From Candidatus Nanoarchaeia archaeon (lineage in GTDB: Archaea; Nanobdellota; Nanobdellia; Woesearchaeales; GW2011-AR4), in NCBI GenBank assembly GCA_035288865.1, contig DATDZA010000017.1:12672-76671 (forward strand): a stretch of 64,000 nt of DNA, given 5' to 3'. Position numbers and translations under genes: made by a program. Positions 399-11,330 of this stretch are shown here, in pieces. Numbering within the stretch: the first letter of the stretch is position 1; every line of letters starts with the position of its first letter. The notes under the pieces are model-generated. The model made no database searches, had not been told where the DNA came from, and worked only from the letters and a program-made list of their open reading frames with translations.

Positions 399-1463
399 TC
401 AATAACTCATCTTAAACCTTAAAATAGCCCCAATTCCCCCCAATCCGTCGAGCTTGTTTCCGCCTTCGTGCTCGGAGCTTATTATCTCAACATCTCCTTT
501 TGTCTTGTCAACCGTCTTCATAATATTTTCAACTCTTTTATAAAAATTCTCCAGTCGGGATTTTTGAATTAGTGAATCAGTAACCAATAAATCCCTGATT
601 GCGCCCATTGCAGCAGCATTCTCAACTTCTTTAAGCCCGTAAGCAAATAAATTATTTTTTGCAATTTCTGTAAATAATTCTTCAACCTTATTCATTTCCT
701 TTGCTGTTCTTTCCAGCTTCAAAGCTTCTCGGACTTCAGGGCGCTTGATTACTTCATCAATCCCATTTTTGGTTGCTGAGGAACAAGTCGCCAGAATTAT
801 TTTTTGCTTTAAATCATCACCTTTTAGCTCTTTCATCAAATCTTCTTTCCAAAATGAAGGGGATGCTAATATAACTTGTTTTATTTCATACCTTTCAACA
901 TATTCTTTCATTTTGTTTATCAAACTCAGATAAAAATTTTCTTTTTTAATATTCTCAGTTCTCTTTTTCTGCACTTCGCCTTCAATATGGGATAAAATTT
1001 CATATCCATATTTCTTAAACAAAGCAAAATAAGATTCTTCGCGGTCATGCACAACTATCAATATAGCAGATTTTGTTTCAGAACTGGCTTCTTTTAATTT
1101 ATCCAGTTGATACTTCAGCCATTCTTCTTTTATAATTGTAATTGTTGTATTTTCATCAACATTAAATGTGTGATGCTCCCCTCTTGGAACATCTTCAGGG
1201 GCTTCTTTTATAATTCCAGAAACGCGGAGAACATTGGAATGCTTACCGAATTCAACACTTTCAACTTCCAGCTTGACAAAAATAGACTTTTTTACGGCAT
1301 CTTTTGATTTTGCATCGCCGCTTGAAGACTTAATCTTCCTGAAAGTCTTGCCCTGAACGATATCTCCTGGATCAATCATATTACTCAAATACCACAAATC
1401 ATCCAGATTCTGCGTAAGCACTTTTACTTCACCTTTTTTAAGATTGGAATGCAGTAATTTCAT
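399..1463 (-). CDS. pelA: Pelota/Dom34 mRNA surveillance protein
   Basis: DDLWYLSNMIDPGD, RVSGII, G.HHT, C-terminal GLGGIGAILRF (eRF1-like domains). Start moved to MKLLH at 1463. Confidence 0.95.
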   Translation of the reverse strand: MKLLHSNLKKGEVKVLTQNLDDLWYLSNMIDPGDIVQGKTFRKIKSSSGDAKSKDAVKKSIFVKLEVESVEFGKHSNVLRVSGIIKEAPEDVPRGEHHTFNVDENTTITIIKEEWLKYQLDKLKEASSETKSAILIVVHDREESYFALFKKYGYEILSHIEGEVQKKRTENIKKENFYLSLINKMKEYVERYEIKQVILASPSFWKEDLMKELKGDDLKQKIILATCSSATKNGIDEVIKRPEVREALKLERTAKEMNKVEELFTEIAKNNLFAYGLKEVENAAAMGAIRDLLVTDSLIQKSRLENFYKRVENIMKTVDKTKGDVEIISSEHEGGNKLDGLGGIGAILRFKMSY

Positions 1464-1518
1464 TATGATAACTAAAATCAAAACCTTTAAATATGTTTAT
1501 GTTAAATTCTTTACTACA

Positions 1519-2691
1519 ATGTTGCAAAAGAGGGCTCAAGGTGGTGTGAATGCCGCTATTCTGGTGGCTATCATTGCAGGCCTGATTATTCTTTACATTA
1601 TTTTCCTCCCAACGTCGCAAAGAGAAGCACTTCTTCAGAATAAAACAGCCGAATCAGAATCAGGAGAAGATAATCCAAACGTGCTCTTGGATGTGTCTCC
1701 GGGCTCTTTAAGCAATAACCAGGGCCTTGAAAATCAGAAGAGTATTCCGGATGCATTTTTGGTTGAGACAACAAACGCGCAGGAGCTGAAAGCAGTAAAC
1801 CCGTTCATCGTAAGAAACGGATGGTTTGACACAAAAACATACAAAACTGATTTTGGCATTGACGATCCAGCAAACACAGACAATGTAATCTTGTCATTCA
1901 CAGCAAAAAAACACACAGGCGTTATCACAATAAAGCTCAACAGCGTAGTGATTTATGAAAATGAAATTGGAAACGAAAACATTGAGCCGGTTAAGCTCGA
2001 CAAAAGGACACTTTCCAAAACAAATACCCTTGAATTCAGCGTTTCATCTGTGGGGATAAGATTCTGGTCAACAAATGAATACAGTTTTGAGAATGTTAAA
2101 ATTATTGGAGACATTACTGACACTTCACGGCAGCAAAGCACGAATATTTTTACGATAACCGATTCAGAGTTTGCAAGCATGGATAAGGCAGCACTGAAGT
2201 TCGTTCCGTCCTGCGGAAGCGTCAGCAATGTTGGCATTCTGGATATTTTTGTAAACAACAAGAAATTATTTTCATCTGTCCCTAAGTGTGACGACTTGTA
2301 CAAGCAAAGCATCCCTAAAAGTGTTTTGAATGAAGGCGAGAACAACATTGTTTTCAAAACAAATAAAGGAAGCTACAGCGTCGAGCAAATCAAGATTTCG
2401 CTCGAATTCGGCCAGCCGACAGTGCGGACATATTATTTTGAAATCAATCAAGACGTCTTTGACAGAATTAGAAACGGCGACAGCGATCTCCAGTTAGCTG
2501 TCAAATTTGTTGATGATGGAAAGCAGAAAAGAGCCAGACTGGATGTTAATGGCCACATCGAAACTATTGATACTAGTAAATTAACTTTCACAGAAAAAAT
2601 TAATACTAAAATTTCAGAAGGAAACAATTACATTAGGTTAGACCCGATAGATGATGTTTCAATCGTTGAATTGAAGATTGAATTAGTTTAA
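1519..2691 (+). CDS. Secreted beta-rich protein with a class III (pilin-like) signal peptide
   Basis: MLQKRAQ followed by a hydrophobic helix GGVNAAILVAIIAGLIILYIIF, then repeated beta-sandwich-like segments. TATA (CCTTTAAATA) about 25 nt upstream of ATG 1519. Confidence 0.65.
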   Translation: MLQKRAQGGVNAAILVAIIAGLIILYIIFLPTSQREALLQNKTAESESGEDNPNVLLDVSPGSLSNNQGLENQKSIPDAFLVETTNAQELKAVNPFIVRNGWFDTKTYKTDFGIDDPANTDNVILSFTAKKHTGVITIKLNSVVIYENEIGNENIEPVKLDKRTLSKTNTLEFSVSSVGIRFWSTNEYSFENVKIIGDITDTSRQQSTNIFTITDSEFASMDKAALKFVPSCGSVSNVGILDIFVNNKKLFSSVPKCDDLYKQSIPKSVLNEGENNIVFKTNKGSYSVEQIKISLEFGQPTVRTYYFEINQDVFDRIRNGDSDLQLAVKFVDDGKQKRARLDVNGHIETIDTSKLTFTEKINTKISEGNNYIRLDPIDDVSIVELKIELV

Positions 2692-2749
2692 CCTTATAAT
2701 AATCTTATCATATAATTTAAAAAGGAGAGGTGGCTTGGGAAGAATTCTA

Positions 2750-2843
2750 TAGAGAATTTTGGAAAATTATCAAATTGTCAAAATTCTCTAAGAAAACTTT
2801 GAATCAAATATATAAAACTTGAATGATTATTCAAAGTTTTCTA
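2750..2843. repeat. REP-like tandem hairpin element (short + long unit)
   Basis: TAGAGAATTTTG..CAAAATTCTCTA (2750-2790) followed by AGAAAACTTTGAAT..ATTCAAAGTTTTCT (2791-2842); homologous units at 8227, 13338 and 27884. Confidence 0.75.
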
Positions 2844-2867
2844 TAGTTTGGTATCCAAAAAACTAAA

Positions 2868-5800
2868 ATGGGGATATGGGACAGTTTTAAAAGAGGATTT
2901 AGAAAGGGAAAGGCAGGCAGTGCAAATAATGCTGCAGCAAATAATCAGCAAGCTGCATCCAATCAACAAAATGATAATTCTATGGATAACCAAAACTCAC
3001 AAAGAAGTGTACCCACTTACATTACCAACGTTATAAAAGGACCATCAAAAGGTTACCTATGGCTCATAATCCTACTTTTTGTTATTGTAATTGGAATACT
3101 TTGGTATAAGAGTGCGCTAAGGCCAGTATTAATCTGGCTGTTGACTTATGGTGGACTTATGGCACTTTGTGGATTTATTTTATGGGGACTTCTAGATGGA
3201 ATAAAAGAATCAGCTCAGGGAAAACCTGACGGATTGACAAAATTATTCATTTCTTTGGCTTTAGTAATCTGGCTCGTTGACATGATACCTCCTAATTTTC
3301 CGGTAATAGGTAGATGGCTTGGTCAGCCATATGCTGGGTTTGAAATTTCATCCAGTGGATTATTGAATATTTCTTTGGTTCCAGTAATAACCTCTTCATT
3401 TATGTTTATATGGTTGTACATAAACATGGTTAAAAACATAGTCAAGCACGAATATGTTAGTTTTGGGCTCGGTTTTATCTCAATACTTATTATAAACAAT
3501 TTTATAAAAAGATTTTTTCCCACATCCGCAAATTGGGGTTTTAGTATTTATCTTCCAACTTGGCAAGGCATTTGGGCCATACTATATTATGTTGGGATAG
3601 CAGCTTTATTTGTTGGTTTAATTATACTCGCAATCTATTTTGATAGGAAAAAAAGTCAGGAATTTCCAGGATTCTTTTCTTATTTCTTTATGATAACAGT
3701 TTTTTCATTTTTCTGGATAAATAATGGGTGGCAGCAAAATCCAAGAGCAGTATTGCACGCAATTTTTATCATAGCCTTTGGTTTTGGTTATATTAAAACA
3801 CACGAAGAAAATCCAGTTGTATGGCATATACTGATTCCCTTATTGTTGATAGTGGATTTCTATGGCTACGGGTTATTATGGAATTTGGGATATCTTTGGG
3901 CTAAATTTATTCCCATCTTTATTGTATTTGTAATCTCATATTGCTATCACAAAACAAACAGTGGTTTCGCAATATTAACATTTATAGTTCTTGTTACTGT
4001 GATACTTATCTTAAGTCTGGACGTAACAGCTTATGCCGAATCTGGAGCATTTGATTACAAAGCACAAAGCGGTGGTGCCGATTTCACACAATTTTTTGGT
4101 ACGCTGAGCAAAAACACAAAACTCCTCATTGAAAGGCAATTAGTATTCGCAACAGGCGGATTATATAGAAGCCAGGTCGAATTAAATCAATATGCGCCGC
4201 TTGGAGTCTTCTTTAAGAATATTCGGGCAGCGCAGCCGAAATTCTATGATGACGAGCCTGTTACAATTTGGGCTACGATTAGCGCTAGAACTTTAAGCGA
4301 GCCGGTGAATGTAAGTTTTAAGTGTTATAGGAAGAGCGGCAACGAACGGATAGAAGAATTACAGAATCAGGCCTCACAGTCTGGCAAATTTGAAGTATCA
4401 ACTTACGAGGAAAGGGACGTCGAATGTAATTTTCAGCAGAGTCCGAACCTTAAAAAATTTGAAGTCGGCTCAAGCAATAATATAATTTTATCCTTAACTT
4501 ACAATTTTGCAACAAGCGCTTACCAAAAAATGTATTTCATTGATAGAGACAGATTGCGGGCGCTGACACGTGAAAATATAGACCCTTTGAAGCAATATGG
4601 AATTACCGACTTAAGCAGTTCGTCTTCACTTGATGATACAAGTAGTGGGCCCGCGGCAGTCTATACAAACGGGCCTGTTGAAGTTGCTACGCAGGTGCAA
4701 AAACTTGTTCCAGTTGATAAAGAGCCAACCGCAGTAGCATCGGTTCTGCTTGGCATACTTCTTCAAAACAGAAACCAGATTTCAGATAAGAATGGCCAGC
4801 CAATAGGCGAATGGGAAGGAAAAATAAACAAGATAAATCAATTGGCTGTAATACTTCCCCCCGGGATTACTATTCCTCATTTTGATCCTTCAAATCCGAA
4901 TAGCGTTAAAAACTGTAATCCTATAAATTTTAAGGAGTATAGTAAGACTGATTGTATATCAGAGTGTATAAACCTTGATGTTGAAGGGAAGAAGAAATGC
5001 GAAAATGAATGCACTTCGCTTTTCAGAGATGACAGCAGCGGCCGTGACACCTACACCGGATATCAGCTTGACGTGAGTCAAATTAGAAATAATACTGAGG
5101 TTAGGGACATCGACCGCTACAAGACTTTCACATGCAGATTAACAGTTTCAAAAGATGTGCTTGATAATACACCAATCACAACAAAATTCATCAGGATAAG
5201 GGCTAAATATGATTATCTAATCGAAAAATCCTACGATGTTGTTGTTGAAAAAGCGCCGATACCTTATGATGAGTATGGCCCGTCAGAAACCGGGTATACT
5301 CCATTTGGGGATGAGGGTACAGACCAAAGAAACGAACCAGATGTTGCCGCGACAGATACGGAAATTGATGCTTACCTAACCTATAAGAAATCTCCCTTGC
5401 AGGGCATAGGCCAATGCATGGAAAATGCTAAAAATAGAACAAAAGTTCCAACAGCAGTCATGGTAAGTGTTGCGTTGCTTGAAAGCAAGAAACCAAAAAC
5501 AACCGGCTTTGGCACTCTGTCAGACCTCGCAACACAATCAAAGAATTTGTTTGGTGTGAAATGTACTCCCAATTGGATTACAAAAAAATGTCCAACTCCT
5601 AACGAGGGTGATAAATGCTGCAGGACGTACGATAAATCCGACCTTGACAAAAAATATGAGCCAAATGCCCCGAATAATTATAGAATTTATGTAAGTCGAT
5701 GTGCTTCGGTAAATGATTTTGCCGACATTATAAGTAAAGAAAGTAGATATAGAAGTGCTATGGGTTCTACAAATGATCCAGAGACCATGATAACAAAAAT

Positions 5801-5909
5801 AGGGGCGGCAGGATACGCAAGCGATACTGAATGGGCCACTAAAATTAAATTAATGTATAGAGATTTACAGAAATACTTGTCCACGCGTTCAATAACTGCA
5901 CAAACATAA
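2868..5909 (+). CDS. Polytopic membrane protein with an extracellular domain and a C-terminal GH73 (glucosaminidase/FlgJ-like) peptidoglycan-hydrolase domain
   Basis: About 10-11 hydrophobic segments in aa ~55-390. The C-terminal ~170 aa contain VALLES (catalytic Glu), SKNLFGVK, YRIY.S..SV.DF..II....RY and AGYASD.EW..KI, matching the GH73 motif order (ES...NLFGIK...Y.S...D...GYATD). Confidence 0.8.
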   Translation: MGIWDSFKRGFRKGKAGSANNAAANNQQAASNQQNDNSMDNQNSQRSVPTYITNVIKGPSKGYLWLIILLFVIVIGILWYKSALRPVLIWLLTYGGLMALCGFILWGLLDGIKESAQGKPDGLTKLFISLALVIWLVDMIPPNFPVIGRWLGQPYAGFEISSSGLLNISLVPVITSSFMFIWLYINMVKNIVKHEYVSFGLGFISILIINNFIKRFFPTSANWGFSIYLPTWQGIWAILYYVGIAALFVGLIILAIYFDRKKSQEFPGFFSYFFMITVFSFFWINNGWQQNPRAVLHAIFIIAFGFGYIKTHEENPVVWHILIPLLLIVDFYGYGLLWNLGYLWAKFIPIFIVFVISYCYHKTNSGFAILTFIVLVTVILILSLDVTAYAESGAFDYKAQSGGADFTQFFGTLSKNTKLLIERQLVFATGGLYRSQVELNQYAPLGVFFKNIRAAQPKFYDDEPVTIWATISARTLSEPVNVSFKCYRKSGNERIEELQNQASQSGKFEVSTYEERDVECNFQQSPNLKKFEVGSSNNIILSLTYNFATSAYQKMYFIDRDRLRALTRENIDPLKQYGITDLSSSSSLDDTSSGPAAVYTNGPVEVATQVQKLVPVDKEPTAVASVLLGILLQNRNQISDKNGQPIGEWEGKINKINQLAVILPPGITIPHFDPSNPNSVKNCNPINFKEYSKTDCISECINLDVEGKKKCENECTSLFRDDSSGRDTYTGYQLDVSQIRNNTEVRDIDRYKTFTCRLTVSKDVLDNTPITTKFIRIRAKYDYLIEKSYDVVVEKAPIPYDEYGPSETGYTPFGDEGTDQRNEPDVAATDTEIDAYLTYKKSPLQGIGQCMENAKNRTKVPTAVMVSVALLESKKPKTTGFGTLSDLATQSKNLFGVKCTPNWITKKCPTPNEGDKCCRTYDKSDLDKKYEPNAPNNYRIYVSRCASVNDFADIISKESRYRSAMGSTNDPETMITKIGAAGYASDTEWATKIKLMYRDLQKYLSTRSITAQT

Positions 5910-5913
5910 GACA

Positions 5914-6984
5914 ATGATAACCAAAAATATTATTTTATTTTTATTATTATCCATGTTTTTGATAGGATGCAATGCAGCAACCGGCAATAATAATAAAAAT
6001 CAGGCAGTAACTTTTACAGGAACCGATGGAATCACGGCAGAATTTGCAGCAAGTGCACCCGCAAAAACAGTTTTTGAAAATAGCTATTTTCCAATTTTAA
6101 TAAGAATAAGAAATATGGGTGCTTATTCAATTCCAAAAGATCCTGCAAATACGCAAGGCCTGATTACTATAGGCAGAGAAAAAGATTATGTGCCGATTCT
6201 TGAAATTGAAGAGAACAGCAGGCTTGCAAAAAACAGCGGCCCAGGTGACAATGAAATGACATTTTTTGTTGATGGCAAAAGCCAGATTAACCCAAATGGC
6301 GATGAATTGGTTGCATCCCTGAAGGCAAAAACAAGCAATCTTGACGCGCAAAGTGAACGGCGAATTTCAACTATTACTGCAAATTTATGTTATCCCTACA
6401 AGACAGCTCTGAGCACCACAGTTTGTATTGATCCAGACATAGAAGGCCTCCGCCCAGGAAAAAAAGTTTGTAAAGTTGCTGCCCAACCATTTGCAAATGG
6501 GCAGGGTGCGCCATTGGCGATAGTGAAAATTGAATCATCAATGCTTCCAGATGTAGACAATAATGTGATAAAGCCACAATTCATTATTTATGTTGAGAAT
6601 AGAGGACACGGAAATCCTGTAAATTTGGCAGGTTTCAGGAATGCCTGCAGAAATGATTTTGATATTAATGACCCAATCAATAATCGATGGAATGTCGCCA
6701 GTTTAAGGGCGTTTACAGCCGACGGCACAGGAAAAGTGCAGCTTATTTGCTGTCCAAATAAATTAGGTTATTGTCCCGATAATGACAAGGATCCAGTCAA
6801 TGTGGACAACTTTGCTGGATTTATAAGATTGAAAGACAATAAAGATTTTATCAGATGCACTTTCAAAAATGGCATACCAAAAACCTTTGACGCCTACACA
6901 TCACCTCTTCAAATAGAAATTGATTATGGTTATGTGCAAACCATTTCAACAAACTTTATTATCCAAAAGCCGCTTAAATACTAG
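5914..6984 (+). CDS. Lipoprotein, paralog 1 of a Cys-containing surface family
   Basis: Lipobox-like LIGC; motifs LCYPYKT..VCIDPD, GAPLAIVKI, IEIDYGY. Confidence 0.7.
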   Translation: MITKNIILFLLLSMFLIGCNAATGNNNKNQAVTFTGTDGITAEFAASAPAKTVFENSYFPILIRIRNMGAYSIPKDPANTQGLITIGREKDYVPILEIEENSRLAKNSGPGDNEMTFFVDGKSQINPNGDELVASLKAKTSNLDAQSERRISTITANLCYPYKTALSTTVCIDPDIEGLRPGKKVCKVAAQPFANGQGAPLAIVKIESSMLPDVDNNVIKPQFIIYVENRGHGNPVNLAGFRNACRNDFDINDPINNRWNVASLRAFTADGTGKVQLICCPNKLGYCPDNDKDPVNVDNFAGFIRLKDNKDFIRCTFKNGIPKTFDAYTSPLQIEIDYGYVQTISTNFIIQKPLKY

Positions 6985-7080
6985 AATTAACAAATTTTGA
7001 ATAAATAAAATGAAAAATATTTTTTAATTTTAAAGGACATTTCGACACCTTTAAATAAAGAAAATATAACTTAGATTAAA

Positions 7081-8178
7081 ATGAAAAAATCCAAAAATTT
7101 TATTATTATTGCATTTTTATTAATTTTTGTCTTCTCAATTTCTGCATGCAGCAATAAATCTTCCGACACCACATCAAAAGAAGAAGTAAGGGTAGGAACA
7201 CAGGGTATTATTGCAAATTTCCTGCCAAACAACCCCCCCGATAAATTACACGCGGAATCTGACAGTGCAAGAAACCAATTTGATGTCGTTTTGGAACTTA
7301 GAAACCAGGGGGCTTATCCTCAGCCTGAAGACTCAGCTGGCGGCTTGGGTGGCCCAAAGGGACGACTATATTTAAGCGGCTATGATCCTTATATTATTAC
7401 TTTGACACCAAAAGCACCCAAGAACGGGCAATCAGCCACAGGCGCGGATTTAAATCAGTTGGCTCTTGATGGAAAAAGCACAATCAATCCCAACGGCGGC
7501 CAGGATATTCTGGCATTTCAGGGCAGTATAGATTATTCTAAACTTAAAGTGGATAAATACGATGTCATTTTGCTTGCAACCGCATGCTACCAGTATCAAA
7601 CTGTGGTCGGCCCCACAGTGTGCATAGACCCCGACCCCTACACAACAGTAAACCAAAAGAAAGTATGCCAGGTTAAAGATACGGTACTTTCAAGCCAGGG
7701 CGCTCCAGTCGCTATTACTAGTATTATCGAAGAGGCCTTTGACCAAAAAACTCAGTTTAAAATAACAATAAAGAACGTCGGCGGTGGAGAAATCATCAAG
7801 AAAGAATCATTGGATAAATGCGACCCTTACGGAAAAAGTACGACTGCTGCAGGCTCGTCAAGTTCTGGCAAGATTGAGAGGGATGATTTGGACAAGGTGT
7901 ATGTCGATTTTGTGAAAATGGCAGATCGTGCAATAACATGCGGCCCATTCGCCGATGGCACCGTAAAAGGAACAAGTGGAAATTTGAGAATGATTAACGG
8001 CGAGGGATTCATAATATGCGAATTGCAGAAATCAAAAAGTGAATATTCTCAGACAAACACTGCTTACACAACCCCAATGGTGATTCACTTAACCTATGGT
8101 TATAGGACTTCCGTAATGCGTACAATGCAGATAATAAGAGAACCATCAAGCACGGGATCGCCAACTTCCAATCCTTAA
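7081..8178 (+). CDS. Lipoprotein, paralog 2
   Basis: ISAC lipobox; ACYQYQT..VCIDPD, GAPVAITSI, LTYGY. Confidence 0.7.
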   Translation: MKKSKNFIIIAFLLIFVFSISACSNKSSDTTSKEEVRVGTQGIIANFLPNNPPDKLHAESDSARNQFDVVLELRNQGAYPQPEDSAGGLGGPKGRLYLSGYDPYIITLTPKAPKNGQSATGADLNQLALDGKSTINPNGGQDILAFQGSIDYSKLKVDKYDVILLATACYQYQTVVGPTVCIDPDPYTTVNQKKVCQVKDTVLSSQGAPVAITSIIEEAFDQKTQFKITIKNVGGGEIIKKESLDKCDPYGKSTTAAGSSSSGKIERDDLDKVYVDFVKMADRAITCGPFADGTVKGTSGNLRMINGEGFIICELQKSKSEYSQTNTAYTTPMVIHLTYGYRTSVMRTMQIIREPSSTGSPTSNP

Positions 8179-8226
8179 ACAGAAAACTTTATATACCTAC
8201 ATCAAAATAAAATCAATTAAATTTAA

Positions 8227-8277
8227 AGAGAACTTTGAATAAATCATTAAGTTTATATATTTCGTTTAAAGTTCTCT
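8227..8277. repeat. REP-like hairpin element (long unit)
   Basis: AGAGAACTTTGAAT..TTTAAAGTTCTCT; its loop aligns with the reverse complement of the 2791-2842 unit (AATCATT.AAGTTT.TATATATTT). Confidence 0.75.
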
Positions 8278-8334
8278 AAGGTAGTTTTAACAAAATTGAT
8301 ATATTTTAAAATTACCAATTGAAAAGAGGCAAAA

Positions 8335-9351
8335 ATGAGTAAACAAAATTATATTCTTGCATTCTTGGTCATATTAGTTCTTTTTGTTTCATCATGCAGT
8401 GGAAAGAGCGGTGCATCAACCGGCAGCGCCCCAAGAACGCCTTTTATCGGCGGCACAGCCGGAATTACGATCAATTTTGAAAAGGACACGCCTCCTCCTG
8501 AAGTTACCGACGATGACACGTTTGGATTCAGGGCGATTATAGATTTGAAGAATGAAGGTGAGTACAGTGTTCCACGAGACGCAGTTAAGGTAAATCTTGT
8601 TGGATTTGATCCGGCAGACTTCGGAAAGTCATTTGATGATTTAAGGGATGTGCTTCCAGATGACAACCTTGATGCGAAGAGGAGAGATGCCGAGGGCAAT
8701 ATTTTAGAGGGCACGACAACTTATGCGCAATTCCCGAGAAGCGGCGATGATTTCATTCCAACGAAATTCCCCGGCAACACACCATTTACTTTTAGGGCAG
8801 ATGTATGCTATAATTACCAGACTCAGGCCGACGCCCAGCTTTGCATATTAAGGGATATGATTAACATCAGGCAGGATGCAATATGCATACCGACCCAAGG
8901 CAGAACAGTTTATAGTTCATCAGCACCAGTTCAGGTTGTAAATTTCAGGCAGAGTGTTATAGGGAAAGACAAGATATCATTTACATTTGATGTTGTATTA
9001 AGCGGCAATGTTGATGTCTTCTGGAGCAGGGAAAAGAGAAAGCCGGTAACTTTTGATGACGGCTGCCCGAGAAACCCAACTGCAAGAAGGGCAGTTGAAA
9101 ACAATGTCGGGGTTACCATAACTGAAATTCCTACGGATCCTTTGTTCTCTGAATTGAAATGCGGCGGCTTAGACGGCGGCTCAACAGGAGTTGTCAGGAT
9201 GATAAATGGTAGGAGATCAATTACATGCACAGCCTCGATTGTTCAGGACAGGCTTGACTTGGAGAAGACAGTCGGCATTTTGCTCGAGTATAATGTTCTC
9301 GACAACAAAGAAACTCAGGTTCTTATCAAGCACCTTGCAGAAGGGCCTTAA
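8335..9351 (+). CDS. Lipoprotein, paralog 3
   Basis: VSSC lipobox; VCYNYQT..LCI, SAPVQVV, LLEYNV. Confidence 0.7.
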   Translation: MSKQNYILAFLVILVLFVSSCSGKSGASTGSAPRTPFIGGTAGITINFEKDTPPPEVTDDDTFGFRAIIDLKNEGEYSVPRDAVKVNLVGFDPADFGKSFDDLRDVLPDDNLDAKRRDAEGNILEGTTTYAQFPRSGDDFIPTKFPGNTPFTFRADVCYNYQTQADAQLCILRDMINIRQDAICIPTQGRTVYSSSAPVQVVNFRQSVIGKDKISFTFDVVLSGNVDVFWSREKRKPVTFDDGCPRNPTARRAVENNVGVTITEIPTDPLFSELKCGGLDGGSTGVVRMINGRRSITCTASIVQDRLDLEKTVGILLEYNVLDNKETQVLIKHLAEGP

Positions 9352-9427: not shown

Positions 9428-10390
9428 TTATTTATTTCCAACCAGCGCAAACTGGCTCAATAAAGCTTCTAACTGTATAAATTCATCGGAGCCTTCCGTC
9501 ATCCGAAATTCTATTTCGCCGCATTTCTCAATAAGAATCATCTTAGATTTATTATCTGTATCCAGATCAATAATCTCTTTCTGTATCTGTTTTATTACAT
9601 CAGAGCCTGCCAATCCATAAGTAAGCATCAAATCCAGTAATTTGTTTCTTGCATCAATAAATTTGTTCTTTAATGCCAATTCCAAAACTTCTTTTATCTC
9701 TTTCGGCTTTGCTATCGAAGCCATTGAATGCACCAAATCTTCTGTGATATGATTTTCAATTGCTCCCGCGCTTTGCAGAATATTTTCCAGCTTCCTGCAG
9801 TCGCCTTCTGAAACCTCATAAAGCGCCTCTTTAGCCTTATCGTCAATCTTCAGTTTTTCTTCCTTGGCAATGTTGTCTATAATTTCAAAAATTTCTTTTT
9901 TATCAAGCCTCTTGAACCTGAAAACAACACATCTGCTCTGGATTGGGTCAATTATTTTTGAAGAATAATTCGCAGACAGTACAAACCTGCACGTCTGAGT
10001 GTAATTCTCCATAGTTCTCCTCAAAGCCTGCTGTGCTTCTCTTGTTAAGGCGTCACATTCGTCTAGATAAATTATTTTGAAGGGAACATCCCCTATAGCC
10101 CTTGTTCTTGCAAAATCTTTTACTTTGTTTCTTATAATATCAATTCCTCTTTCATCTGAAGCATTCAGCTCAAGAAAATTCTGATGCCACAGGTCTTTGA
10201 AAAGTTTTTTTGCTATCACTAAAGCCAAGCTCGTTTTTCCTACACCGGCAGGCCCCGCAAACATCAAATGAGGCAGGTTCTTTTGCTCAACAAACGCCTT
10301 CACTCTTTTTACTATATCTTTCTGGCCCTTAATGTCAGAGAAATCACTAGGCCTGTACTTCTCGGTCCACAGAGATTTTTCTACATTCAT
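9428..10390 (-). CDS. rfcS: Replication factor C small subunit
   Basis: WTEKYRP, GPAGVGKT, ELNASDERG, DECD, SRC motifs. Confidence 0.97.
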   Translation of the reverse strand: MNVEKSLWTEKYRPSDFSDIKGQKDIVKRVKAFVEQKNLPHLMFAGPAGVGKTSLALVIAKKLFKDLWHQNFLELNASDERGIDIIRNKVKDFARTRAIGDVPFKIIYLDECDALTREAQQALRRTMENYTQTCRFVLSANYSSKIIDPIQSRCVVFRFKRLDKKEIFEIIDNIAKEEKLKIDDKAKEALYEVSEGDCRKLENILQSAGAIENHITEDLVHSMASIAKPKEIKEVLELALKNKFIDARNKLLDLMLTYGLAGSDVIKQIQKEIIDLDTDNKSKMILIEKCGEIEFRMTEGSDEFIQLEALLSQFALVGNK

Positions 10391-10850: not shown

Positions 10851-11207
10851 TTACTGCTCGTTTACTTGCTTTTGGCACAAATCTTTTAGTAAATTAAGTT
10901 CGGCATCAGATACACCAAAACTTGGATCTGCAAGATTATTGCATATTTCAGGATCATTTTTATCCAAAGCAACTCCGATTATGCAGCCACCAACTGCAGC
11001 GGACCTTGCACCCGGCACAGCACCAACAATTCTACTGCAAAAAGAAACATCATTACTCTTTAATGCCATAGTCGTGAAACATAAGTCTTTCCTCATATTA
11101 CTCTTAAAATTTTCACATTTCGATGCCTCTGTATTATAAGATTTGGCGCACCCAGAAATAATAAAAATTCCTAAAACTAAGATTGAGAATAATAAAATTT
11201 TATTCAT
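10851..11207 (-). CDS. Cys-rich lipoprotein (hypothetical)
   Basis: MNKILLF...ISGC lipobox; repeated C...C motifs. Confidence 0.6.
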   Translation of the reverse strand: MNKILLFSILVLGIFIISGCAKSYNTEASKCENFKSNMRKDLCFTTMALKSNDVSFCSRIVGAVPGARSAAVGGCIIGVALDKNDPEICNNLADPSFGVSDAELNLLKDLCQKQVNEQ

Positions 11208-11330
11208 GTTTAATGTTAAAATGGATTTACATACATATAAATATATCGTTTGCAATTAAAAGTTATTCGAACTTAAAATCAAAAACTAAGAATGTTATTA
11301 TTTTTTAATCATTAACATAAAAATAAAATC

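What the first reader, a model, noticed from the sequence alone, without database searches (positions are those of the whole stretch)
1519..9351. Surface-protein locus: pilin-type secreted protein, GH73-tipped membrane protein and three paralogous lipoproteins sharing one domain
Seen: five co-oriented genes. The three lipoproteins share G[IT]..F..P, CY.Y.T...C, P[LV].[IV] and .Y.Y motifs. The middle of the 1013-aa protein seems to carry a fourth copy (PLGVFFK, LTYNFATSAY, GPVEV, AKYDYLIEK). The first gene has a KRAQ/hydrophobic class III signal peptide. Inference: a multi-subunit envelope or attachment apparatus with an enzymatic tip, plausible for a DPANN episymbiont docking on a host cell.
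Basis: partly seen in the sequence, partly recalled or inferred. Interest (0 to 1): 0.65.

Follow-up and report, generated by a model that had tools for sequence, protein, structure and literature searches.

The report
Woesearchaeal surface module with wall-cutting tip
Five neighbouring genes of a tiny uncultured archaeon (Woesearchaeota) encode a conserved set of membrane-tethered surface proteins, one carrying an exchangeable enzyme that cuts bacterial cell wall, which gives a testable lead on whether these archaea attach to or feed on bacteria.

Summary
The five co-oriented genes are real. They lie between pelota and RFC and keep this order in essentially all 80 related loci fetched. The family occurs in 321 of 401 sampled genomes of the phylum, including other orders of the class.

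- **G1:** a conserved [KR][AG]Q class-III-like N-terminus, then at least two (probably three) ~90-aa beta repeats.
- **G2:** about ten TM helices, a two-beta-sandwich ectodomain, and a C-terminal GH73 domain (Pfam 1.3e-16).
- **L1-L3:** full-length paralogues (profile E 1e-72 to 2e-26) with a conserved lipobox Cys and six conserved Cys. AF2 (pLDDT 90) gives tandem Ig-like sandwiches.

**G2 tail:** it is a swappable cassette. Among 45 orthologous tails, 26 carry SLT, 6 GH73, 2 phage lysozyme and 1 an amidase. About 15 orthologues have no tail. GH73 arose at least three times inside SLT clades.

**Target:** the genome lacks a murein pathway, so the target is probably foreign (bacterial) wall.

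**"Fourth copy" in G2:** it shares the architecture of L1-L3, but homology is shown only weakly, for the last ~50 residues (P 3e-5).

**What is known:** the large transglycosylase proteins are published (Castelle 2021). I found no published description of the five-gene module. Function and complex formation remain inferred.

The parts
1484..1493 (+). TATA-like box CCTTTAAATA, 25 nt before the G1 start codon (putative promoter, leaderless-type spacing)
   Evidence: Sequence read. The same 10-mer sits 23 nt before the L2 start. The word itself is not rarer than chance in the window, so the promoter role is an inference.
1519..2691 (+). G1: 390-aa protein with a class-III-like signal or anchor, followed by tandem beta repeats
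   Evidence: ORF. The start at 1519 fits the conserved orthologue N-termini. G1 is the most conserved of the five, with 55% mean column identity over 42 sequences. No Pfam or PDB sequence match. Weak CBM-like PF14683 hits in 12 of 42 orthologues, best 1.6e-4.
1519..1611 (+). G1 N-terminus MLQKRA|QGGVNAAILVAIIAGLIILYIIFLP: class-III (prepilin-like) signal motif or signal anchor
   Evidence: The motif [KR][AG]Q plus about 22 hydrophobic residues is conserved in orthologues. One TM peak. The genome has a Peptidase_A24 gene, 58 bits over the cut-off. It also has pilin-like ORFs with KKAQ/KRGQ N-termini on contig C35. Cleavage was not tested.
1837..2400 (+). G1 internal repeats R1 (aa ~107-196) and R2 (aa ~206-294)
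   Evidence: hhalign of alignment segments gives probability 95.6%, E 1.1e-8, over 82 columns. Reversed controls give E 0.1-0.4.
2425..2688 (+). G1 probable third repeat R3 (aa ~303-390)
   Evidence: It aligns colinearly with R2 over 68 columns and shares the pattern L.F...G.L.I.N....G.N.I, but this is not significant (E 0.11).
2750..2842 (.). Two hairpins in the G1-G2 spacer (arms 2750-2768/2772-2790 and 2791-2804/2829-2842)
   Evidence: These belong to a dispersed hairpin family noted by another first-stage finding. Their role (terminator, processing site or repeat element) was not tested.
2868..5909 (+). G2: 1013-aa polytopic membrane protein with a beta-sandwich ectodomain and a GH73 tail
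   Evidence: ORF. AF2 model of aa 48-812 has pLDDT 82.5. Orthologues are present in 60 of 80 loci.
3045..4067 (+). G2 membrane domain (aa ~60-400, 9 hydropathy peaks, about ten TM-length helices in the model)
   Evidence: No Pfam, PDB-sequence or Foldseek match. The number of TM helices varies from 4 to 10 in Woesearchaeal orthologues and is 1 in other orders. Polar residues H297, E313 and D330 are conserved in 64-76% of sequences.
4185..5303 (+). G2 middle ectodomain (aa ~440-812): two beta-sandwiches with a Cys-rich helical insert. This is the conserved core of the G2 family and the candidate 'fourth copy'.
   Evidence: AF2 secondary structure. Foldseek hits tandem Ig-like proteins only (integrin alphaV 8xez_A, CNA, ClfB; E 5e-4 or weaker). 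The family has 1371 clusters at 50% identity. The link to L1-L3 is weak.
5418..5870 (+). G2 C-terminal GH73 (glucosaminidase) domain, aa 851-1001
   Evidence: Pfam PF01832 1.3e-16. NCBIfam FlgJ/GsmA partial matches. PDB FlgJ 5dn4 E 5.7e-5. Glu in ALLES at aa 873 (nt 5484-5486) and GYASD at aa 982-986. No paralogue elsewhere in the genome.
5914..6984 (+). L1: 356-aa lipobox protein (LIGC), starting 4 nt after the G2 stop
7048..7057 (+). TATA-like box CCTTTAAATA, 23 nt before the L2 start
   Evidence: The promoter role is inferred.
7081..8178 (+). L2: 365-aa lipobox protein (ISAC); tandem Ig-like beta-sandwiches
   Evidence: AF2 with a 125-sequence alignment: pLDDT 90.4, pTM 0.84. Foldseek gives generic tandem Ig-like adhesin and pilin hits with TM-score about 0.2. 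427 homologues, all unnamed Woesearchaeota/Nanoarchaeota proteins with no Pfam domain.
8335..9351 (+). L3: 338-aa lipobox protein (VSSC)
   Evidence: Second most conserved of the five (median 46% identity).

Best explanation
This is the local copy of a vertically inherited cell-surface gene module of Woesearchaeales, also found in simpler form in other orders of the class Nanoarchaeia.

**Shown**
- Four of the five products are tethered to the outside of the membrane. Three are N-terminally lipid-anchor-type (lipobox) tandem Ig-like proteins (L1-L3). One (G1) has a prepilin-like or signal-anchor N-terminus followed by repeated beta modules.
- The fifth product (G2) is an integral membrane protein. 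Its ectodomain is also a pair of beta-sandwiches.
- In this organism G2 ends in a GH73 N-acetylglucosaminidase domain.
- In orthologues that end is a cassette. It is most often an SLT lytic transglycosylase. Less often it is GH73, a phage-type lysozyme or an amidase. Sometimes it is a non-enzymatic domain, or nothing.

**Inferred**
- The five proteins work together as a hetero-oligomeric surface assembly. The Ig-like parts would act as a short stalk holding the enzyme a few nanometres above the archaeal membrane.
- The archaeon has no murein pathway, so the enzyme would cut the glycan strands of bacterial peptidoglycan that the cell touches. The wall could belong to a living partner or prey, or to wall debris. 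Cutting it would allow close contact or access to material.
- The conserved core (G1, G2 ectodomain, L1-L3) has a more general envelope or adhesion role that predates the enzyme.
For: **Synteny and distribution**
- The order pelota|G1|G2|L1|L2|L3|RFC is seen in the 80 loci from different species wherever the contig is long enough.
- The L family is found in 321 of 401 sampled genomes and in nearly all genomes of the same order.
- G1, G2 and L are adjacent in 17 of 20 genomes of other orders.
- Each paralogue keeps its position in the cluster, so the triplication is old and the copies are not redundant.

**Export and location**
- Lipobox Cys and six conserved Cys in L1-L3.
- Cys-rich G2 ectodomain and GH73 domain.
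- The basic N-terminus plus 9 hydropathy peaks place the G2 C-terminus outside the cell.

**Tail swapping among non-homologous murein hydrolases**
- Of 45 tails: SLT 26, Glucosaminidase 6, Phage_lysozyme2 2, Lysozyme_like 2, Amidase_2 1.
- Further counts.
- Of 171 representatives: SLT 80, GH73 11.
- One tail combines SLT and Amidase_3.

**Tail history on the tree**
- The G2 ectodomain tree needs at least 10 changes of tail type.
- GH73 arose at least 3 times.
- The window's GH73 clade is sister to an SLT-bearing orthologue, support 97.

**No own murein metabolism**
- One Mur-ligase-type gene only, as in the archaeal controls.
- No SLT gene and no LD-carboxypeptidase.

**Literature**
- Large murein-like transglycosylase proteins are known as a Woese-/Pacearchaeota-specific family (PMC8204110).
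- GH23 genes in Woesearchaeal MAGs have been read as predatory (PMC9723730).
- Archaeal PG hydrolases kill bacteria experimentally (PMC12352652).
Against: - No direct evidence that the five proteins interact.
- TATA-like boxes before G1 and L2, and hairpins in two spacers, suggest several transcripts rather than one operon.
- About a quarter of Woesearchaeal orthologues, and the sampled orthologues of other orders, carry no enzyme. About a third of tails are of unknown or non-hydrolase type. Wall cutting therefore cannot be the core function.
- Sequence conservation is higher than is usual for host-recognition proteins.
- No bacterial partner of any Woesearchaeote is known from the papers read.
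- GH73 activity and substrate are untested. The second acidic residue of FlgJ-type GH73 is not evident in the alignment.
Confidence: 0.55

Rival explanations
1. The conserved core is the organism's own envelope scaffold, an S-layer-like or membrane-proximal protein lattice built from lipid-anchored Ig-like paralogues. The hydrolase tail is a secondary add-on. It would be used for antibacterial defence or competition, or to harvest sugars and amino acids from wall debris, not for docking on a host.
For: - The module is near-universal in the order and widespread in the class.
- It is vertically inherited at a housekeeping locus.
- It evolves moderately slowly.
- Orthologues without any enzyme exist.
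- The Ig-like beta-sandwich fold is typical of archaeal surface-layer proteins (own knowledge).
- Secreted archaeal PG hydrolases act as antibacterial weapons (PMC12352652).
Against: - The proteins are small (about 340 aa), and four or five different subunits are unusual for an S-layer.
- No muropeptide-recycling enzyme (Peptidase_S66) was found in the genome.
- Tethering the enzyme to the producer's own membrane limits it to objects in direct contact. That fits contact better than secreted warfare or scavenging.
Confidence: 0.25
2. The five genes are merely conserved neighbours that encode independent surface proteins. There is no common apparatus.
For: - There are probably several promoters, and the spacers of 96-176 bp contain hairpins.
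- In two families of another order the set is split, with G1+L at one site and G2+L+L at another.
- No interaction data exist.
Against: - Order and orientation are kept across about 80 species and across orders, while the flanking genes change.
- G2 and L1 are separated by only 4 nt.
- The G2 ectodomain and L1-L3 share an architecture.
Confidence: 0.1
3. The GH73/SLT-type tails act on a non-murein substrate. Candidates are the archaeon's own or a host archaeon's surface glycans, pseudomurein, or chitin-like polymers.
For: - Woesearchaeota have been proposed as partners of methanogens (own knowledge of the literature).
- GH73, GH23 and lysozyme folds can act on chitin-like GlcNAc polymers (own knowledge).
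- Substrate was not tested.
Against: - The swapped-in domains include N-acetylmuramoyl-L-alanine amidases (Amidase_2, Amidase_3). Their bond exists only in murein.
- Five different murein-specific families converge on the same position.
- The PLoS Biol 2025 survey found that archaeal PGHs are largely absent from pseudomurein producers (PMC12352652).
Confidence: 0.07
4. The hydrolase remodels a murein-like wall made by the archaeon itself.
For: In bacteria, membrane-bound lytic transglycosylases and FlgJ act on the cell's own wall (established knowledge).
Against: - The genome (91% complete) has a single Mur-ligase-type hit, like the murein-free archaeal controls.
- It has no SLT gene elsewhere.
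- Orthologues lacking any hydrolase are common.
Confidence: 0.03

Closest known systems
[quoted passage not shown] 2021, PMC8204110; also GH23 genes in Vigneron et al. 2022, PMC9723730)
   Same: - Same lineage.
- Same kind of protein: large, membrane or extracellular, with a murein-cleaving domain.
- Most orthologues of G2 carry exactly that SLT domain.
- Same proposed meaning: contact with bacterial walls.
   Different: - This copy carries GH73 instead of SLT.
- In the passages I searched (keyword look-ups only), the papers describe a single protein family. They do not mention the conserved five-gene module, the three lipoprotein paralogues, the pilin-like partner, the cassette-like exchange among hydrolase classes, or the enzyme-free orthologues.
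- Identity with fam00969 could not be tested because its sequences were not at hand.
FlgJ and the specialised lytic transglycosylases of bacterial trans-envelope machines (VirB1, EtgA and the like; own knowledge)
   Same: - A GH73 or SLT domain is fused or tethered to a structural component, so that wall cutting is confined to where the machine sits.
- The window's tail aligns with the FlgJ glucosaminidase domain.
   Different: - Those enzymes open the producer's own wall for its own machine.
- Here the producer has no murein, so the wall must belong to another cell.
- There is no homology outside the catalytic domain.
SpoIID/SpoIIM/SpoIIP engulfment complex of Bacillus (own knowledge)
   Same: A polytopic membrane scaffold combined with a lytic transglycosylase and an amidase. 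It thins peptidoglycan so that two membranes can come together.
   Different: - No sequence relation.
- That complex is bacterial and acts within one sporangium.
- The analogy is functional only.
Secreted archaeal peptidoglycan hydrolases that kill bacteria (PLoS Biol 2025, PMC12352652)
   Same: Archaeal proteins with bacterial-type PG hydrolase domains. The paper notes that Nanoarchaeota are rich in them.
   Different: - In the parts of the paper I searched, transmembrane anchoring is not mentioned (0 occurrences of 'transmembrane').
- Here the enzyme is the C-terminal module of a polytopic membrane protein inside a conserved multi-gene surface module.
Tandem Ig-like surface adhesins and pilins (integrin alpha leg domains, streptococcal AgI/II C-terminal domains, CFA/I pilins, WxLIP)
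   Same: These are the best Foldseek matches of L2 and of the G2 ectodomain. They have the same general tandem beta-sandwich build.
   Different: - TM-scores are only about 0.1-0.2 and identities below 12%.
- No family-level relation.
- A lipobox anchor and the six-Cys pattern are not features of those families.

Membership tests
GH73 / Pfam PF01832 Glucosaminidase (G2 tail) | Significant match to the family profile above the curated cut-off | tested here: met
   61.9 bits against a cut-off of 30.2, E 1.3e-16, profile positions 4-122 of 123.
GH73 / Pfam PF01832 Glucosaminidase (G2 tail) | Catalytic Glu in the N-terminal helix, and the conserved YATD-type motif | tested here: inconclusive
   - AGYASD aligns with AGYATD of FlgJ 5dn4, and NLFGVK with NVFGVK.
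- A Glu in ALLES (aa 873) lies where the catalytic Glu is expected. The residue-level PDB alignments shown start after it, so the equivalence rests on the Pfam span and on inspection.
GH73 / Pfam PF01832 Glucosaminidase (G2 tail) | Hydrolysis of the GlcNAc-MurNAc bond of peptidoglycan | not testable with these tools
   Needs an enzyme assay.
Archaeal class III signal peptide / type IV pilin-like proteins (G1) | Short basic N-terminus, [KR][GA] cleavage motif, then about 20 hydrophobic residues | tested here: met
   The window has MLQKRA|QGGVNAAILVAIIAGLIILYIIFLP. The motif is conserved in orthologues.
Archaeal class III signal peptide / type IV pilin-like proteins (G1) | A prepilin peptidase (Peptidase_A24) is encoded in the genome | tested here: met
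   One gene, 58.4 bits, over the cut-off.
Archaeal class III signal peptide / type IV pilin-like proteins (G1) | Match to a curated archaeal pilin N-terminal family, or neighbouring assembly ATPase and platform genes | tested here: not met
   - No pilin family appears in Pfam or NCBIfam at E up to 1.
- None of the cluster's five proteins matches an assembly ATPase or platform family, and the flanking ORFs read as pelota and RFC.
- G1 may therefore be only a signal-anchored protein. I do not file it as a pilin.
Lipoproteins with lipobox (L1-L3) | Signal peptide ending in [LVI][ASTG][GAS]C, with the Cys conserved in orthologues | tested here: met
   - The window has LIGC, ISAC and VSSC.
- The Cys is present in at least 90% of 125 sequences.
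- About 30 further lipobox-like ORFs occur in the genome.
Lipoproteins with lipobox (L1-L3) | Actual lipid modification of the Cys | not testable with these tools
   Needs mass spectrometry or labelling.
L-family paralogy extended to the G2 middle domain ('fourth copy') | Significant sequence or profile similarity over the domain | tested here: not met
   - BLASTP finds nothing.
- hhalign gives probabilities of 2-10%.
- HMM cross-search gives a best score of 11 bits.
- A profile of short G2 orthologues gives 0.9%.
- Only the C-terminal ~50 residues reach P 3e-5, against 2.5e-3 for the reversed control.
L-family paralogy extended to the G2 middle domain ('fourth copy') | Same fold and order of secondary-structure elements | tested here: inconclusive
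   - Both models are two beta-sandwiches. In both, domain 1 ends in a long hairpin, G(A)PV opens domain 2, and the chain finishes with a Cys strand, a short helix and a 25-residue YxY hairpin.
- Both hit integrin alphaV 8xez_A.
fam00969 murein-like lytic transglycosylase proteins (Castelle 2021) | Woese-/Pacearchaeotal large protein with an SLT domain | tested here: not met
   - This protein has GH73, not SLT, and the genome has no SLT domain at all.
- Its orthologues mostly have SLT.
- It is best described as an orthologue of SLT-bearing proteins with a replaced tip. Formal membership of fam00969 was not testable.

The most novel reading that the evidence does not exclude
The five proteins form a previously undescribed cell-contact machine found across the class Nanoarchaeia.
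- It would have a pseudo-symmetric stalk of four related disulfide-locked Ig-like ectodomains: the G2 ectodomain plus L1-L3.
- The stalk would sit on a membrane base with no known fold.
- A pilin-like, lectin-type subunit (G1) would complete it.
- In Woesearchaeales the machine would have acquired interchangeable murein-cutting heads to breach the wall of bacterial partners.

That would mean the hosts or prey of this very diverse, hostless DPANN group are bacteria. It would be a cross-domain episymbiosis or predation with its own dedicated organelle.
Probability: 0.2. Interest if true: 0.88.

Novelty: new variant of a known kind. Interest (0 to 1): 0.62.

Why it matters
**Open question.** Woesearchaeota are among the most diverse and widespread DPANN archaea. 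In the papers read here I found no cultured member and no identified host. Whether they interact with bacteria is open. The literature so far rests on the mere presence of transglycosylase genes.

**What this locus adds**
- The wall-cutting enzyme is the replaceable head of a conserved, vertically inherited, membrane-tethered module. The module has four further surface proteins of unknown families.
- Evolution has repeatedly put different murein-specific enzymes at the same position. That is strong comparative evidence that bacterial wall is the target.
- It names concrete proteins for antibodies, proteomics, cryo-ET labelling and enzyme assays. This makes the question of who Woesearchaeota touch directly testable.

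**Families defined.** It defines three sizeable protein families without annotation. The G2 ectodomain alone has more than 1300 clusters at 50% identity.

Tried and rejected
**'Fourth copy' tests**
- BLASTP of the G2 middle region against L1-L3 and G1 gave nothing.
- I tried hhalign with and without secondary structure taken from the models. I also tried a global mode, HMM cross-searches, and a profile of short bitopic G2 orthologues used as an intermediate. None links the whole domain to the L family.
- A 516-aa protein at the G2 position in another order hit the L profile. The score was only 8 bits in a four-sequence database, so I rejected it as evidence.
- The search of 1.84 billion representatives with the G2 ectodomain profile lists only the best 150 hits. 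It therefore could not show whether L-type proteins appear among the weak hits.

**Fold and family searches that found nothing specific**
- Profile searches of G1, G2-TM, G2-mid and the L family against PDB sequences and Pfam.
- Foldseek against PDB and BFVD, which gave only generic Ig-like matches.

- Model coordinates are not exposed, so L2 and G2 could not be superposed.

**Ideas rejected**
- Own murein wall.
- Muropeptide recycling via LdcA.
- The shared CCTTTAAATA box as a module-specific regulatory element, because it is no more frequent than chance in the window.


Full report
**Anatomy**

The window is archaeal and has low G+C. Between pelota (399-1481, minus strand) and the RFC small subunit (9428-10390, minus strand) lie five plus-strand ORFs:
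- G1, 1519-2691, 390 aa
- G2, 2868-5909, 1013 aa
- L1, 5914-6984, 356 aa
- L2, 7081-8178, 365 aa
- L3, 8335-9351, 338 aa

The longer TTG-initiated reading of G1 from 1444 is not supported. The orthologue N-termini begin at M-x-K-[KR]-[AG]-Q. The genome holding the window is 1.46 Mb in 53 contigs and 91% complete.

**The three lipoproteins**

L1-L3 are paralogues over their full length.
- BLASTP gives 4e-27, 2e-18 and 9e-10.
- Profiles built from 60-75 orthologues each give 1.3e-72, 1.3e-36 and 1.8e-26.

AF2 on that alignment gives a confident model (pLDDT 90.4, pTM 0.84). It has two beta-sandwich halves. Foldseek finds only generic tandem Ig-like proteins: integrin alpha legs, streptococcal AgI/II, CFA/I pilins, WxLIP and DUF11-type viral proteins. 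TM-scores are about 0.2. The fold class is therefore clear, but there is no known family. No Pfam, NCBIfam or PDB sequence match exists. The genome has only these three copies.

**G1**

- The N-terminus [KR][AG]Q-GG.NAA.LVAIIAGLIILYI.FLP is conserved. It looks like an archaeal class III signal.
- The genome encodes a Peptidase_A24. It also has a cluster of small pilin-like ORFs with KKAQ/KRGQ N-termini on another contig.
- No pilin family matches at E up to 1, and no assembly genes are adjacent. A plain signal anchor therefore remains possible.
- The body contains internal repeats. aa ~107-196 and ~206-294 match at probability 95.6% (E 1.1e-8). A third unit aligns colinearly but not significantly.
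- Twelve of 42 orthologues give weak CBM-like hits. This hints at a lectin-type jelly roll, no more.
- G1 is the most conserved of the five.

**G2**

- Hydropathy gives 9 peaks.
- The AF2 model of aa 48-812 (pLDDT 82.5) shows about ten TM-length helices, an amphipathic helix, and then two beta-sandwiches with a Cys-rich helical insert.
- The membrane part matches nothing in Pfam, PDB sequences or Foldseek.
- The membrane part is poorly conserved except for polar residues H297, E313 and D330.
- The number of helices varies from 4 to 10 in the order. In other orders G2 is bitopic, 410-516 aa.
- The ectodomain is the conserved core of the family, with 1371 clusters at 50% identity.
- The tail is GH73: Pfam 1.3e-16 and FlgJ 5dn4 with the NLFGVK and AGYASD motifs. 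A Glu in ALLES lies at the expected place.

**Is the G2 middle a fourth copy?**

By sequence this is not demonstrable.
- BLASTP finds nothing.
- hhalign gives 2-10%.
- HMM cross-search gives a best score of 11 bits.
- A profile of short orthologues does not bridge the gap.
- The last ~50 residues (strand with Cys, short helix, long hairpin with YxY) do align in every comparison. In a segment-wise test they reach P 3e-5, against 2.5e-3 for the reversed control. Probability rises to 35-52% when model secondary structure is added.

The models agree in architecture and in five colinear motif positions:
- a Gly at the first strand
- hIL..T..Y/F..T in the long hairpin that ends domain 1
- G(A)PV opening domain 2
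- h.h.N in its second strand
- the terminal unit

I put the odds of true distant paralogy at about 60%. The decisive superposition could not be run.

**Conservation**

- All 80 loci found with an L2 profile come from Woesearchaeota/Nanoarchaeota MAGs. They show the same order wherever the contig reaches (also 14-16).
- The L family is present in 321 of 401 sampled genomes of the phylum. It is in nearly every genome of the order, usually as 2-4 matches.
- In 17 of 20 genomes from other orders, G1, G2 and L genes are again adjacent. In two families the set is split into G1+L and G2+L+L.
- Median identity to the window over 22 complete loci is RFC 79, pelota 60, G1 51, L3 46, L2 39, L1 37 and G2 ectodomain 35. 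This is moderately fast, not hypervariable.

**The swappable tip**

- G2 orthologues have tails of 0-389 aa.
- Of 45 tails of at least 100 aa, Pfam finds SLT in 26, Glucosaminidase in 6, Phage_lysozyme2 in 2, Lysozyme_like in 2, Amidase_2 in 1 and fn3 in 5 (details).
- In the public protein collection, the orthologues' precomputed domains are SLT (20), GH73 (7, counting the query itself) and phage tail lysozyme (1). Their names are only 'hypothetical', 'glucosaminidase domain-containing' or 'soluble lytic murein transglycosylase'.
- Of 171 representatives: SLT-type 80, GH73 11, phage lysozyme 1, no tail 18, other or unknown 61. The last group includes SLT+Amidase_3, beta/gamma-crystallin and a beta-propeller.
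- On a tree of the ectodomain, the tail label needs at least 10 changes. GH73 needs at least 3. The window plus L007 (both GH73) are sister to an SLT-bearing orthologue with support 97.

Non-homologous enzymes that all cut murein, including amidases whose bond exists only in murein, have thus repeatedly replaced each other at one position.

**Whose wall?**

- The genome has one Mur-ligase-type gene, as do the murein-free archaeal controls.
- It has no SLT domain anywhere.
- It has no LD-carboxypeptidase.
- It has no second GH73.

An own murein wall is therefore very unlikely, and a recycling pathway is not evident.

**Interpretation**

- The best reading is a conserved surface module whose membrane subunit presents a murein hydrolase to whatever bacterial wall the cell touches.
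- The core module is older and more general than the enzyme. An envelope-scaffold role with an antibacterial or feeding add-on is the main rival.
- Complex formation, co-transcription and activity are all inferences.
- TATA-like boxes 23-25 nt before the G1 and L2 starts, and hairpins in two spacers, suggest more than one transcript.

**Literature**

- The large SLT proteins are described as a Woese-/Pacearchaeota-specific family (PMC8204110).
- They have been read as signs of predation (PMC9723730).
- Archaeal PG hydrolases have been shown to kill bacteria (PMC12352652).
- In the literature I searched I found no description of the five-gene module, the lipoprotein paralogues, the cassette exchange or the enzyme-free orthologues.

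**Earlier notes of this scan**

I looked up these earlier notes after I had reached the above reading. They describe the same operon in at least ten other genomes with similar conclusions. They are not independent evidence. One added lead, repeats in G1, was tested here.

Noticed in passing
window 2750-2842 and 8228-8277: Hairpin-forming repeats sit in the G1-G2 and L2-L3 spacers of the cluster. They belong to a dispersed hairpin family flagged by another first-stage finding. They could be terminators or processing sites that split the cluster into transcripts.
   Followed up: partly
window 3756-3758, 3804-3806, 3855-3857 (G2 aa H297, E313, D330): Three polar residues inside the last membrane helices of G2 are kept in 64-76% of 50 orthologues, although the membrane domain is otherwise poorly conserved. 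They are possibly a functional site in a membrane domain with no known fold.
   Followed up: partly
own genome, contig C35 about 45.9-53.6 kb (outside the window): A run of small ORFs has class-III-type N-termini (MRKKAQG..., MKKAQTE..., MNNRKAQ..., MKKRGQL...). This is probably the type IV pilus-like locus of this organism. It uses the same KKAQ motif as G1.
   Followed up: no
L019 and L036 (RFC gene next to the cluster): The RFC small-subunit ORF is 955 and 846 aa in these two relatives, instead of about 320 aa. This suggests an intein or other insertion.
   Followed up: no
L077 (Nanoarchaeota MAG B4T1B8): In this relative the L2- and L3-type genes are much enlarged (1028 and 664 aa), and the G2 tail carries beta/gamma-crystallin-type domains instead of a hydrolase.
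   Followed up: no
L093/L094 (G279) and G141, G056, G246: In two families of another order the module is split. G1 plus one L gene lie next to pelota. G2 plus two L genes lie elsewhere on the contig.
   Followed up: partly
L090 3976-5445 (G086): The bitopic G2 orthologue of this genome starts with a cytoplasmic CxxC...CxxC zinc-ribbon-like segment before its single TM helix.
   Followed up: no
window 10851-11255 (minus strand): A further small lipobox protein (134 aa, ISGC, Cys-rich) lies just beyond RFC. The genome has about 30 lipobox-like ORFs in all, so lipid anchoring seems to be a common export route here.
   Followed up: no
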